In this document: one piece after another, positions 6,001-9,000 of the stretch | How the letters are laid out: every line of letters starts with the position of its first letter | Numbering within the stretch: position 1 is the first letter of the stretch | Source of the DNA: a virus | UHGV virus genome: UHGV-1734115 | Strand: one strand, 5' to 3' | Length of the DNA: 14,013 nt | Program-made: the position numbers

Positions 6001-9000
6001 GTGAATTTAGTCTGGATAGCCATAAGTGTTTTATCCATTTTTGGGAACTCCTGGCTGATTAAGTATGTCGATAAGGCGTTTCCATCCATCACGTAATTTA
6101 CGTGTGATTCGTTCAAGTAAAGATTCGGAAGGGCAGCCAGCAACAGGCCACCCTGCAATGGCATATTGCATGGTGTGCTCCTTATTTATACATAACGAAA
6201 ACGCCTCGAATGAAGCGTTATTGGTATGCATATAAAAAAGCCCTCACATTGGAGGGCAAAGAAGATTTCCAATAATCAGAACAAGTCGGCTCCTGTTTAG
6301 TTACGAGCGACATTGCTCCGTGTATTCACTCGTTGGAATGAATACACAGTGCAGTGTTTATTCTGTTGTTTATGCCAAAAATAAAGGCCACCATTAGGCA
6401 GCCTTGTTGTTCTGTTTACCAAGTTCTCTGGCAATCATTGCCGTCGTTCGTATTGCCCATTTATCGACATATTTCCCATCTTCCATTACAGGAAACATTT
6501 CTTCAGGCTTAACCATGCATTCCGATTGCAGCTTGCATCCATTGCATCGCTTGAATTGTCCACACCATTGATTTTTATCAATAGTCGTAGTCATACGGAT
6601 AGTCCTGGTATTGTTCCATCACATCCTGAGGATGCTCTTCGAACTCTTCAAATTCTTCTTCCATATATCACCTTAAATAGTGGATTGCGGTAGTAAAGAT
6701 TGTGCCTGTCTTTTAACCACATCAGGCTCGGTGGTTCTCGTGTACCCCTACAGCGAGAAATCGGATAAACTCTATTCACCCCTACAGAGAGCAAAAGAGA
6801 AACGCCGATGAACAACTCATGGTGGCAGGAACTAATGCATTTTTTCCTGCAAGGAATGACACTTAAACAGTTGATTCATATGCTAATCATCCTGATCATA
6901 TTGATTATTGTTATGCCGGTAAGCGTAAAAGAATGGATAAACCTGCATAATCCAGAAATCCTTCCTTATTATTGGATGTATTACATCCTGTTGTTCTGCG
7001 TTAGCTATGTGCTTAACGGTGTTGTTAATTCCGCTTATCACGCTGTGACTGAAAGAATTGAGGTATCCGCTGCTCAGAAGCGCAAATCTAAAGAAGAAAA
7101 ATATGTGCAAGATTTGTTTGATTCGTTAACTCTTGGAGAAAGAGCGTATTTGGCATTCGCTGTAGCCGCGAATAACCAGCTAAAGACAGAAAAGGGAAGC
7201 CCTGAAGCAATCTCATTGCTCGAAAAAGGGCTTCTTATTCGGATACCTTCTGCTACTGGATATCCTGAAATCGACCGTTTTGTTATCCCGGAACGCTATA
7301 GAAATGAGTGCTACATTCGGTTTGCCGGGAAGGCAGACAGCCTTATGGATGAACTTATCGCTCAGGATAAGCATGGCAAAAACAAGTAATTAGCAAATGA
7401 ATTTATCATCTCGCCGTCAGTTGTTTTGATTTCCGGTAGCCTGCCGCGTAAAGAGCTACGTTCGGAAGACAAGTTGAACCTTCATATTTTCTGGTCAACG
7501 TTGTCAGAGTTATCACTTCTGCTCTCATTGCTGGTTTGCGCTTGCATTGCAAGACCACTCGTGAAGGGGTTGGCCTGTGTAGCTTGTCGGAGCTGATCGC
7601 CTCCTGACTTTGCAGATTTGCGCGACGCTCTCTACGGCGAGAAGCTGCGGTTCCTTTAAATTCTGTTTTTCTGGACATGGATTCCTCCCGAATAAACTCT
7701 GGCGATGCAATCCCGAAGCTACTCCTGAGAGAGTTGCTTCGGCATTGCATCCCACAGCTTATGTGGTTGGGTGATCTGGCTTTTCAGCCACGTAGTCGAG
7801 TGTTCGACGTTGTTTAAAGAGCCTGCCAGTCTGTTCCGTTTGGCTTACAGCGTCCTGCTGATGAGTTAACTTTATCGAAATGATAAATTAATGGCAATAG
7901 CAAAATGATAAATTGTTTTAGTTTTCAAATATCCTGTTGATTATTATGGTTTTTTATTTGATTGCAGGAATTTATCAGAAGGAATAAAGAGACTTGAGGG
8001 GGATCAGAATTGCGCGTTTTAGTGAGTTGTATCTGTTTATTTTTCAACAAATACAATTGGTTATGGTGTTATTAGGTGTGGGGATCGTGAGGCAAAGAAA
8101 ACCCGGCACTGAGGCCGGGTGTGTATTAGGGGGTTGAGACTCCAGAGAGCAATCCGTAGATTTTATATACAGTAAATGCTAATGCTGGCAAGCCAAGGGC
8201 CCATTTGATTATATCAAGCTTAACATCACTAAGCTTACCTTCTAACTTTGCCTCTTGAACAGAAAGAGCTGCATCGATCTTTTTTGATTGGGAGTCAAGG
8301 GCACTCTCAATTCTACTCGATTGTATGTCCAGACGACTGTTGATTTGTTCGTGCTGAGTAACAACTAAATGCTTCATCTCCTTTATATCTGAAGCCATTA
8401 GTTCACGCCATTTGGCCATATCAGCCTGCATTTTTGAGGCCACTGCATCCACTTCAGCTTTATTTGCCTTCAGAAGTGCCTGTATTTCGTTTCTGCTCAA
8501 ATCGGACATTGCGGTTCCCTGTATAGGAGTTTCCTCGTACGGTGGGATAACATTAGATTGTCCTTTACAATCGGCAACCCCTCCTTTATCTACGATTGTA
8601 GCAGTTAGCTGGGAATTGGTCGCATCATCCACCATGTTTTTTGGTGAATAAGAGGAAATAGGCGTAGAAAACAGATTACCTTTTGCTGTTTCCATGAACA
8701 TCATGAAATCGCGAGTATTAACGTTATTCAGGGAAACTTGCAGTGGTTTAACAATACTTGATGTTTTGTAAGTAATAGTTAAATCACCTACTTCTTCCGG
8801 TTGTTGCATTACGACTTCGCTCCATTAGAGTTTTGTGCCTCTAATTGTTCGAAAAGAAGAACTATATTCTCTTGAAGAGCCTTTAGTTGTGCCATTGGCA
8901 TTATCACAGTGCATTGCTGATTGAGTTCATTTACAGAGCCTATCTGCATATTCGCTCTACCTGGTTGATCTGGTATATCATTTTGGGATAGTACCGCAGG

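What the first reader, a model, noticed from the sequence alone, without database searches (positions are those of the whole stretch)
6172..6393. Structured intergenic region with an intrinsic terminator and an additional 9-bp perfect stem-loop
Seen: about 220 bp without a long ORF containing a minus-strand terminator (6240..6257 hairpin plus T-run) and a separate perfect 9-bp stem-loop (6320..6347). Inference: the terminator is a tL-like site that N antitermination must override to express the recombination genes; the second hairpin could be an RNA processing site, a small RNA or a protein-binding site.
Basis: inference. Interest (0 to 1): 0.4.

Follow-up and report, generated by a model that had tools for sequence, protein, structure and literature searches.

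The report
Phage lambda PreS small-RNA locus
This intergenic stretch is a near-identical copy of the phage lambda PreS (LPR1) small RNA gene, which ends at the known terminator tL2a; the extra stem-loop is a conserved hairpin just before the small RNA's start, so the finding is largely known biology.

Summary
Both hairpins are real and lie at the stated coordinates on the minus strand, which is the pL (leftward early) operon of a lambdoid prophage: N, orf28, ral, this region, cIII, kil.

The region equals lambda's ral-ea10 spacer fused to its ea10-cIII spacer, with ea10 absent.

The terminator (stem 6240-6257, U-run 6234-6239) is the homolog of lambda tL2a. It is also the 3' end of the Hfq-dependent small RNA PreS/LPR1, which activates host dnaN. 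The window copy (6318->6233, 86 nt) matches lambda's 88 nt except for one loop base and a 2-nt deletion, and both mutationally defined seeds are identical.

The "9-bp" stem-loop is a 14-bp (17 with the lower stem) RNA hairpin on the minus strand. The last base of its 3' arm is PreS +1.
- 228 of 229 related loci carry a hairpin there.
- There are at least 6 stem sequences; 9 of 16 pairs show compensatory changes.
- All wobbles are U-G on the minus strand.
- Mosaic homology breaks exactly at the hairpin base and at the end of the U-run.

I infer the hairpin helps define the PreS 5' end; this is untested.

Two more terminator-like hairpins (6384-6405, 6200-6219) were missed.

Verdict: already known; low to moderate interest.

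The parts
6394..6594 (-). ral (restriction alleviation) gene, the upstream neighbour in the pL operon
   Evidence: Pfam Ral PF11058, 162.5 bits, full length. The C-terminus and 3' flank align to lambda and phage 21 ral.
6377..6405 (-). Terminator-like hairpin over the ral stop codon (stem 6405..6384) plus U-rich run UAUUUUU (6383..6377).
   Evidence: Terminator scan: 9 pairs, 5 of them G-C. Folds at -13.9 kcal/mol, z = -2.9. By my own reading of the aligned sequence, lambda has two mismatches in this stem. Phages with a different upstream gene carry AGGCCG/CGGCCU at the same place.
6314..6353 (-). Conserved 5'-flanking RNA hairpin. The 14-bp core is 6318..6349 (loop CAAC, 6332..6335). The lower stem is 6351..6353 with 6314..6316, across an A-A mismatch.
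   Evidence: Fold -21.8 kcal/mol, z = -7.4. RNAalifold predicts it unaided. 93.8-95.6% of cells are paired against 23-51% when the partner is slid; 8-9 of 16 pairs have both-side changes; 0 of 500 shuffles reach the observed covariation score. Present in 228 of 229 related loci.
6233..6318 (-). Homolog of lambda small RNA PreS (LPR1), 86 nt. The 5' end is taken from the lambda +1 (GAGCAAUG...). The 3' end is after the U-run.
   Evidence: Lambda LPR1 boundaries come from the preprint's primers P810, P1103, P1104 and P969. Pairwise alignment to lambda's 88 nt: one substitution in the terminator loop and a 2-nt deletion between stem and U-run.
6258..6288 (-). PreS seed region (nt 31-61). It includes CUG (6277..6279), mutated in LPR1-M1 for dnaN pairing, and GAA (6267..6269), mutated in LPR1-M2 for alaS pairing.
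   Evidence: Identical to lambda; mutant primer sequences. Duplex with the E. coli dnaA-3'/dnaN leader (-48..-11) is -31.9 kcal/mol, z = -4.55, 0 of 1000 shuffles as good.
6234..6257 (-). Intrinsic terminator homologous to lambda tL2a, which is also the PreS 3' hairpin and U-tail. Stem 6252..6257 with 6240..6245, loop 6246..6251, U6 6234..6239.
   Evidence: Aligned to lambda, phage 21, HK97 and HK106. Annotated as a terminator in HK97, HK106 and phage 21 records. Equated with tL2a by the PreS preprint.
6200..6219 (-). Third hairpin, AACGCUUC-AUUC-GAGGCGUU, followed by UUCGUUAU, 14 nt after the PreS end and just upstream of the cIII Shine-Dalgarno. From memory it is probably lambda tL2b.
   Evidence: Terminator scan. 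Fold -9.9 kcal/mol, z = -3.6. The sequence is conserved in lambda, HK97 and SF11, with a related version in phage L.
6126..6184 (-). cIII translation-initiation RNA element (Rfam Lambda_thermo)
   Evidence: RF01804, 88.5 bits against a gathering score of 50, E = 6.6e-21.
6031..6171 (-). cIII gene, the downstream neighbour. ea10 is absent here, unlike lambda.
   Evidence: Pfam Lambda_CIII, 106 bits. The alignment shows the ea10 gene of lambda and phage 21 missing between the terminator and the cIII leader.

Best explanation
The region is the PreS (LPR1) small-RNA cassette of a lambdoid prophage. It lies in the N-antiterminated pL operon on the minus strand, between ral and cIII.

Transcription from pL passes ral and then the cassette, which has three parts.
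1. A stable hairpin (6353..6314).
2. An 86-nt RNA (6318..6233) with a single-stranded seed.
3. The GC hairpin plus U6 (6257..6234), homologous to lambda terminator tL2a.

The terminator has two roles. For polymerase it is a tL2-type stop that N-modified complexes read through to reach cIII, kil and the recombination genes. For the RNA it is the 3' hairpin and U-tail that lets the fragment bind Hfq and persist as PreS. In lambda, PreS pairs with the end of dnaA upstream of dnaN, opens the dnaN ribosome-binding site, raises the sliding clamp and helps phage DNA replication. It also represses alaS.

Shown here by sequence:
- the cassette's identity with lambda's and its position in the operon;
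- identical seeds and complementarity to the dnaN leader;
- covariation of the upstream hairpin and its co-inheritance with PreS.

Inferred:
- The upstream hairpin is the structural signal that sets the PreS 5' end. A double-strand-specific cut (RNase III type), or an RNase E cut directed by the hairpin, at the base of the 3' arm is my favoured mechanism (about 0.45). Such a cut would leave the upstream mRNA with a protective 3' hairpin.
- After the cut, the freed GAGC re-pairs with GCUC inside PreS.
- Further trimming of about 20 nt gives the shorter, more abundant form and frees the seed.
For: Context. Pfam finds N_peptide, SieB, Ral, Lambda_CIII, Kil and an S24 repressor in lambda order. 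Rfam finds the cIII element at 6126..6184.

Homology. 6233..6393 aligns with only scattered differences to the lambda and phage 21 ral-ea10 spacer, and 6172..6232 to the ea10-cIII spacer. The arrangement without ea10 is the same as in HK97 and HK106.

Identity of the element.
- The preprint places LPR1 between ea10 and ral and equates its 3' end with tL2a. It reports Hfq enrichment, ~88-nt and ~68-nt species, lytic-cycle expression, and dnaN activation and alaS repression confirmed by compensatory mutations.
- Its primers fix +1 at GAGCAATG and the 3' end at ...GAUUUUUUA.
- The window copy differs by one loop base and a 2-nt deletion, and both seeds are identical.
- The seed-dnaN duplex is -31.9 kcal/mol, with 0 of 1000 shuffles as good.

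Hairpin.
- It folds at -21.8 kcal/mol, z = -7.4.
- 228 of 229 loci have one directly 5' of GAGCAAU, in at least 6 stem versions.
- 9 of 16 pairs change on both sides, and 93.8% of cells are paired against 25-47% when slid.
- Conservation falls sharply just 5' of the hairpin base and just 3' of the U-run, with several unrelated upstream and downstream contexts (blast boundaries).

Origin of the RNA. No sigma-70-like promoter is found on the minus strand in 5500..7500.
Against: Nothing was measured in this phage: no expression, Hfq binding, termination efficiency or RNA ends.

The lambda 5' end I rely on is the boundary the authors cloned, which matches a ~88-nt band. It is not a nucleotide-resolution 5' mapping that I could read.

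The preprint says nothing about how the 5' end arises or about the hairpin. The published Mol Cell version could not be read.

Stems in the non-lambda versions are only 11-13 bp with a C-U mismatch near the base. That is short for RNase III.

The sequence around +1 does not look like an RNase E site by my own inspection.

The covariation comes from about six lineage-level versions plus a few single-lineage changes (my reading of the folded variants), so the independent events are fewer than the cell counts suggest.
Confidence: 0.85

Rival explanations
1. The upstream hairpin has nothing to do with making PreS. It is a 3'-end stabiliser for whatever mRNA lies upstream, blocking 3'-to-5' exonucleases. 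Alternatively it is a folding insulator that keeps the sRNA from mispairing with variable upstream sequence.
For: It directly follows the stop codon of the upstream gene in HK97 and in the Salmonella phages examined (sequences in 40, 49). The loop sequence is not conserved. In E. coli VL40 the hairpin is kept although PreS and its terminators are deleted.
Against: Across mosaic junctions it travels with PreS, not with any particular upstream gene: there are several unrelated upstream contexts, and conservation starts at its base. Its 3' arm ends exactly at the lambda PreS +1. The two roles are not mutually exclusive.
Confidence: 0.25
2. PreS is an independent gene with its own promoter, and the hairpin is part of, or overlaps, that promoter or a primary-transcript leader.
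For: A terminator-like hairpin sits upstream at the end of ral. That could imply a need to re-initiate transcription.
Against: The promoter scan finds nothing on the minus strand. Sequence upstream of the hairpin differs completely between phages, and in HK97-type phages it is coding sequence. The hairpin stems differ in sequence, so no shared -10 or -35 element can lie within them. In lambda the RNA appears only when pL is derepressed.
Confidence: 0.05
3. The inverted repeat acts at the DNA level, as a protein-binding palindrome or a recombination hotspot that marks a mosaic boundary.
For: It is a perfect 9-bp palindrome-like repeat, and it sits at a mosaic junction.
Against: The sequence of the central stem is free to vary as long as pairing is kept. 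All wobble pairs are U(5')-G(3') on the minus strand and would be A-C mismatches on the plus strand. The minus-strand RNA fold is 5.6 kcal/mol more stable than the plus-strand one.
Confidence: 0.04
4. The stretch between the hairpins encodes a small protein: the 31-aa ORF 6218..6313 on the minus strand, starting at the AUG in GAGCAAUGUCG.
For: The ORF exists. By my own reading of the aligned sequence, it is also open in lambda because the DNA is nearly identical there.
Against: In the diverged Salmonella and P22-like versions the AUG is AUA, and 2-nt and 13-nt insertions shift the frame. GGAG lies only 2 nt from the AUG. The region functions as a base-pairing RNA in lambda.
Confidence: 0.03
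5. It is just a terminator plus a chance hairpin in a spacer, with no further function.
For: Spacers in AT-rich phage DNA often contain hairpins.
Against: The homolog is experimentally characterised. The unit is present in 2237 of 5426 complete E. coli genomes. The pairing covaries.
Confidence: 0.02

Closest known systems
Phage lambda PreS (LPR1) Hfq-dependent small RNA (Silverman et al., bioRxiv 10.1101/2024.10.31.621285; cited as Mol Cell 2025;85:4678)
   Same: It has the same operon position downstream of ral and the same strand. The sequence is the same except for one loop base and a 2-nt deletion. Both seeds are identical, the terminator stem is the same, and it has the same complementarity to the dnaA-dnaN junction.
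   Different: ea10 is missing, so PreS is followed directly by the cIII leader, as in HK97 and HK106. The U-run abuts the stem, without lambda's GA spacer, which makes the terminator more canonical. Nothing was measured in this phage.
Lambda tL2 terminator cluster (tL2a-d, between bet and ral; the preprint's reference 47 for tL2a, and Luk & Szybalski 1983 from my own knowledge)
   Same: 6234..6257 is the sequence homolog of tL2a. By position, 6200..6219 corresponds to the hairpin just upstream of lambda cIII, which I recall as tL2b.
   Different: The two sites are 14 nt apart here because ea10 is absent. A third terminator-like hairpin at the end of ral is better paired here than in lambda. 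The tL2b assignment rests on memory, not on a tool result.
RNase III processing hairpins of phage polycistronic transcripts (T7 R1.1-type sites; lambda N-leader, cIII and sib sites; own knowledge)
   Same: It is a long, nearly perfect RNA helix inside a polycistronic early transcript. The downstream RNA's 5' end lies at the base of the 3' arm, next to a 1x1 internal loop. A cut there would leave the hairpin on the upstream RNA.
   Different: No cleavage data exist. The helix is 17 bp at most and 11-13 bp in other versions. This is a statement about how it may work, not a claim of membership.
Small RNAs processed out of longer mRNAs that share the mRNA's terminator (3'UTR-derived Hfq sRNAs such as CpxQ and SroC; own knowledge), and the phage terminator by-product sRNAs StxS and lambda 6S
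   Same: The sRNA uses an operon terminator as its Hfq module and has no promoter of its own. StxS is likewise described as a by-product of antitermination control (abstract of PMC7547250).
   Different: PreS lies in the middle of an operon, at a terminator that is normally read through, rather than at the operon's end or just after a promoter.

Membership tests
PreS/LPR1 small RNA of lambdoid phages | Lies in the early leftward (pL) operon, on the same strand as N, downstream of ral | tested here: met
   N, ral, cIII and kil are all on the minus strand in lambda order. Aligned to the lambda ral-ea10 spacer.
PreS/LPR1 small RNA of lambdoid phages | At least 92% identity and no more than 3 gaps to lambda LPR1 (the authors' own conservation criterion) | tested here: met
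   85 of 86 aligned bases are identical, plus one 2-nt gap against the 88-nt lambda RNA.
PreS/LPR1 small RNA of lambdoid phages | Seed nucleotides shown by mutation and compensation to pair with dnaN (CUG) and alaS (GAA) | tested here: met
   Identical sequence at 6258..6288. The duplex with the dnaA-3'/dnaN leader is -31.9 kcal/mol, z = -4.55.
PreS/LPR1 small RNA of lambdoid phages | GC-rich 3' hairpin followed by a U-tail (the Hfq-binding module) | tested here: met
   A 6-bp stem with 5 G-C pairs, plus U6.
PreS/LPR1 small RNA of lambdoid phages | Accumulates as ~88-nt and ~68-nt Hfq-bound RNAs in the lytic cycle, activates dnaN and aids phage replication | not testable with these tools
   Known only for lambda.
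Lambda tL2a intrinsic terminator | Orthologous sequence and position | tested here: met
   The stem is identical to that of lambda and phage 21, and the loop differs by one base. The homologous site is annotated as a terminator in HK97, HK106 and phage 21.
Lambda tL2a intrinsic terminator | Terminates unmodified RNA polymerase and is read through by N-modified polymerase | not testable with these tools
   Needs term-seq or reporter assays with and without N.
RNase III processing site | About two turns of double-stranded RNA | tested here: inconclusive
   Here it is 14 bp, then an A-A mismatch, then 3 bp. Other versions have 11-13 bp with a mismatch.
RNase III processing site | An RNA end maps inside or at the base of the helix, and this depends on rnc | tested here: inconclusive
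   Lambda PreS +1, as cloned by the authors, is the last base of the 3' arm. There are no nuclease data.
Independent promoter-driven sRNA gene | A conserved promoter upstream of +1 | tested here: not met
   There is no promoter-like site on the minus strand. Upstream sequence is unrelated between phages.
Small protein-coding gene | Start codon and reading frame conserved in diverged homologs | tested here: not met
   AUG becomes AUA, and there are frame-shifting indels in the Salmonella-type versions.
Any Rfam family covering 6185..6393 | Score at or above the gathering threshold | tested here: not met
   Only Lambda_thermo, at 6126..6184, passes. The best other match is MicX at 21 bits against a gathering score of 75.

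The most novel reading that the evidence does not exclude
The hairpin, the sRNA and the terminator form one mobile 'sRNA cassette' that is exchanged as a unit among lambda-like and P22-like phages. Within it, the covarying 5' hairpin is the maturation signal that excises PreS from the antiterminated pL transcript. The cut would be of RNase III type, at the base of the 3' arm. It would be followed by a switch in which the freed GAGC pairs with GCUC, and by trimming that exposes the seed. As far as I could search, the hairpin and the origin of the 5' end are not discussed in the PreS preprint.
Probability: 0.4. Interest if true: 0.45.

Novelty: already known. Interest (0 to 1): 0.28.

Why it matters
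The region is not an anonymous structured spacer. It encodes a phage small RNA that reprograms host DNA replication. A hairpin-plus-PreS unit similar to this one occurs in about 41% of complete E. coli genomes, up to six copies each, and it is unannotated in RefSeq and absent from Rfam.

Recognising it prevents mis-annotation as a mere terminator.

The one new observation is the strictly co-inherited, covarying 5' hairpin and the sharp cassette boundaries. This gives a concrete and easily tested hypothesis for how an sRNA is cut out of the middle of an antiterminated operon. The alignments made here (A4, A5) could seed an RNA family model.

Tried and rejected
- Rfam at gathering and at permissive thresholds found no family for the sRNA or the hairpin.
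- I asked whether the element had been named earlier among the EHEC Hfq-bound 'EcOnc' RNAs of Tree et al. 2014. By position in the Sakai genome, allowing for the coordinate shift between genome versions, EcOnc20 lies in the pL/nutL leader of Sp5. EcOnc22 lies in a tail-gene region of Sp15. Neither is PreS. Only these two candidates were checked.
- HnrS, a 66-nt prophage sRNA, lies in the late region and is unrelated.
- The small-ORF reading was rejected.
- The own-promoter reading was rejected.
- The single genome-contig scan was wasted on a pattern I specified wrongly. It could only match the Salmonella-type body and returned two unrelated loci, L010 and L011.
- A full-length RNAduplex of PreS against dnaN gave unrealistically long duplexes. 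I redid it with the seed region only.
- A search for older literature on pL-operon processing sites (Hyman & Honigman) found nothing in the held library.
- The published Mol Cell version (PMC12767721) is not held, so I cannot exclude that it already describes the hairpin or the 5'-end biogenesis.
- No covariance model was built, because the MAFFT alignments already gave clear pair counts.
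Full report
**What is in the sequence**

Reading 5900-6700 and listing ORFs shows that the finding lies on the coding (minus) strand of a lambdoid early-left operon. Pfam confirms the gene order:
- an S24 repressor (9253-9957);
- N (7406-7750);
- SieB on the plus strand (6808-7389);
- Ral (6394-6594);
- CIII (6031-6171);
- Kil;
- a Sak4-like AAA_24 protein (5051-5731).

Rfam finds the cIII translation element Lambda_thermo at 6126-6184 (88.5 bits). The window as a whole is a mosaic whose closest relatives are HK629, mEp506 and HK620.

**Check of the observation**

Both hairpins are real.
- The terminator is GCCCUC-CAAUGU-GAGGGC (6257..6240) followed by U6 (6239..6234). 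It was found by the scan and folds at -11.1 kcal/mol, z = -3.3.
- The perfect 9-bp repeat is at 6320-6347. Perfect hairpins of at least 9 bp occur at 5 loci in the window. Markov simulations give about 0.7 hits on average, counting nested hits (9 in the window on that count).
- As minus-strand RNA the second hairpin extends to 14 pairs (6349-6318, loop CAAC), including two U-G wobbles. Three more pairs follow beyond an A-A mismatch. It folds at -21.8 kcal/mol, z = -7.4; the plus-strand RNA folds less well, at -16.2.
- The whole 285 nt folds with z = -7.4.

**Homology**

A blastn search of phage records finds the region in 373 records. Alignments show two things.
- 6233-6393 is, with only scattered differences, the lambda and phage 21 spacer between ral and ea10.
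- 6172-6232 is the spacer between ea10 and cIII.

So this phage, like HK97 and HK106, simply lacks ea10. The HK97 and HK106 records annotate the hairpin as a putative or rho-independent terminator. The phage 21 record annotates a terminator on each strand at the homologous place.

**Identity**

A literature search for tL2 led to Silverman et al. (bioRxiv 10.1101/2024.10.31.621285; cited elsewhere as Mol Cell 2025;85:4678). They report the following.
[quoted passage not shown] - It gives ~88-nt and ~68-nt species and is expressed in the lytic cycle only.
- It activates dnaN by opening its ribosome-binding site and represses alaS. Both effects were proven with compensatory mutations.
- It supports lambda DNA replication and prophage-derived phage yield.

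Their primers fix the RNA as GAGCAAUGUCGCUCGUAACU...GAGGGCGAUUUUUUA, 88 nt. This corresponds to J02459 complement 33924..34011 by my arithmetic on locus L004.

The window copy runs from 6318 to 6233 (86 nt). It differs by one base in the terminator loop and by a 2-nt deletion between stem and U-run. The nucleotides mutated in LPR1-M1 (CUG) and LPR1-M2 (GAA) are unchanged, and so is the seed-deletion segment. The seed region pairs with the E. coli dnaA-3'/dnaN leader at -48..-11 with -31.9 kcal/mol, z = -4.55, and 0 of 1000 shuffles as good.

The authors' own criterion for a conserved LPR1, at least 92% identity and no more than 3 gaps, is met. Rfam has no family for it. RefSeq leaves it unannotated, although a hairpin-plus-PreS unit similar to this one occurs in 2237 of 5426 complete E. 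coli genomes, up to six times per genome.

**The second hairpin**

PreS +1 (G6318) is the last nucleotide of the hairpin's 3' arm. The authors' full deletion keeps the hairpin and starts exactly there (primer P969). The preprint does not mention the hairpin or how the 5' end is made.

To test conservation I collected diverged copies.
- Salmonella P22-like phages carry the whole unit, much diverged in sequence (blastn 72-78% identity for the matched part): SF11, g341c, ST415, phage L and As1.
- Two scans of viral contigs brought the set to 229 loci.
- In 228 of them the 40 nt before GAGCAAU fold into a hairpin of the same architecture.
- The stems come in at least six sequence versions, by my grouping: lambda UGUGUAUUCAUUC, SF11 UAAUGACCAUU, L019 UAAUGCGGAUU, phage L UAUAGCAGAUU, L092 and L235 UUAUCGACUUU. 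From my own reading of the folded variants, there are also single-lineage compensations: UAUAGCUGAUU/AGUCAGCUAUG in L190, and L078, where a U-G becomes C-G and the A-A mismatch becomes U-A.

On MAFFT alignments that were not fitted to any structure:
- 95.6% (A4) and 93.8% (A5) of cells are paired, against 23-51% when the 3' partner is slid;
- 8 and 9 of 16 pairs show changes on both sides;
- no shuffle out of 500 reaches the observed covariation score.

RNAalifold recovers the same helix on its own. Every wobble is U on the 5' arm and G on the 3' arm. That is compatible only with the minus-strand RNA, the pL transcript, and argues against a DNA-level palindrome.

The top three pairs (A-U, U-G, U-A) and the base (GC.C / G.GC) are nearly invariant. 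The middle pairs vary freely, and the loop is not conserved.

**Cassette boundaries**

Among the 94 loci with a lambda-type body, the per-position majority fraction is 0.95-1.0 inside the unit. It drops to about 0.6 immediately 5' of the hairpin base and to about 0.45-0.5 after the U-run.
- There are 19 distinct upstream 20-mers, which I group into several unrelated contexts, such as the ral 3' flank and the stop codons of various other genes.
- There are 18 distinct downstream 20-mers, which I group into the cIII leader, the ea10 start and other gene starts.

Blast hit ends tell the same story: many end at query 203 (window 6352) and start at query 85 (window 6234). Hairpin versions and body versions also recombine with each other. 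Examples are a lambda hairpin with a Salmonella-type body in L067 and L084, and a phage-L hairpin with a lambda body in L026. One E. coli strain keeps the hairpin but has lost PreS and both terminators.

**Mechanism**

Shown by sequence:
- this is the PreS cassette with the tL2a-homologous terminator;
- the seeds are intact;
- there is no promoter-like site of its own;
- the hairpin is a conserved minus-strand RNA structure co-inherited with PreS.

From established lambda biology:
- N-modified polymerase reads through the tL terminators to express cIII, kil and the recombination genes;
- PreS appears only when pL is active.

Inferred:
- The hairpin determines the 5' end by directing an endonucleolytic cut at the base of its 3' arm. 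RNase III is the obvious candidate for a 14+3-bp helix with a 1x1 internal loop next to the cut. RNase E guided by the hairpin is the alternative.
- After the cut, the bases G6318 and G6316-C6315, which paired with the 5' arm and lower stem, can form the small GAGC/GCUC hairpin that RNAalifold predicts.
- In the full-length RNA the 5' GAGCAA pairs with UUGUUC of the seed. Removing about 20 nt, which gives the shorter and stronger band in lambda, would free the seed.

I put about 0.45 on the processing role, about 0.25 on a pure stabiliser or insulator role, and small probabilities on the other readings.

**Comparison and novelty**

The locus is a member of the PreS/LPR1 family and of the tL2a terminator by every feature that sequence can test. 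The functional features cannot be tested here. It is not a new kind of element.

The differences from lambda are the absence of ea10, a U-run that abuts the terminator stem, and a better-paired terminator-like hairpin at the end of ral.

The covarying 5' hairpin and the sharp cassette boundaries are, as far as I could search, not described. I could not read the final Mol Cell paper.

**Verdict**

The element is already known. Interest is low to moderate (0.28). There is a testable side hypothesis about how the sRNA matures.

Noticed in passing
window 779-868 (-): Rfam sRNA-Xcc1 (RF02221) match above the gathering score: 62.9 bits against 53, E = 1.2e-9. It is far from the finding, and its meaning in a lambdoid prophage is unclear.
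   Followed up: no
window 6377-6405 (-): A terminator-like hairpin whose loop contains the ral stop codon, followed by UAUUUUU. It is perfectly paired here (9 bp). By my reading of the alignment, lambda has two mismatches in it. Phages with a different upstream gene have a GC-rich hairpin AGGCCG/CGGCCU at the same spot, so a terminator about 25-30 nt upstream of the PreS hairpin may itself be conserved.
   Followed up: partly
window 6200-6219 (-): A hairpin 14 nt after the PreS U-run and just before the cIII Shine-Dalgarno. Its sequence is conserved from lambda to the P22-like Salmonella phages. It may be lambda tL2b (from memory), or part of the cIII leader.
   Followed up: partly
window 1630-1652, 11422-11445, 13928-13955, 13971-13993: Four other loci with perfect stems of at least 9 bp and short loops. 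Simulations give about 0.7 hits on average for the whole window (nested hits counted).
   Followed up: no
window 7777-7790 (-) and 8094-8119 (-): UGGCUGAAAAGCCA upstream of N looks like a boxB-type nutL hairpin. CCCGGC-CUCAGU-GCCGGG followed by UUUUCUUU, just after the 227-aa ORF (8126-8809), looks like an intrinsic terminator.
   Followed up: no
L138 1480-1570 (E. coli VL40, NZ_CM177011.1): A natural deletion variant. The hairpin is intact and is followed after GGAGCAAT directly by the cIII ribosome-binding site. The PreS body and both terminators are gone.
   Followed up: partly
loci L026, L045, L067, L084, L012 (sequences): Hairpin versions and sRNA-body versions occur in different combinations. 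This implies recombination at the invariant junction GAGCAAURUCGCUCGUAAC. The Salmonella-type body carries a 13-nt insertion that forms an extra small hairpin, and it has a different terminator stem (GCCGCUC/GGGCGGC).
   Followed up: partly
upstream of the hairpin in many loci: A short motif GAATAAGC(A/G)C precedes the hairpin in unrelated upstream contexts. In HK97, and by coordinates in SF11, its TAA is the stop codon of the upstream gene. The window has GAATAAACACTGCAC instead.
   Followed up: no
window 6578-6664 (-): A 28-aa very acidic ORF (MEEEFEEFEEHPQDVMEQYQDYPYDYDY) overlaps the start of ral. It corresponds in position and length to a 28-codon CDS upstream of ral in the lambda record.
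   Followed up: no
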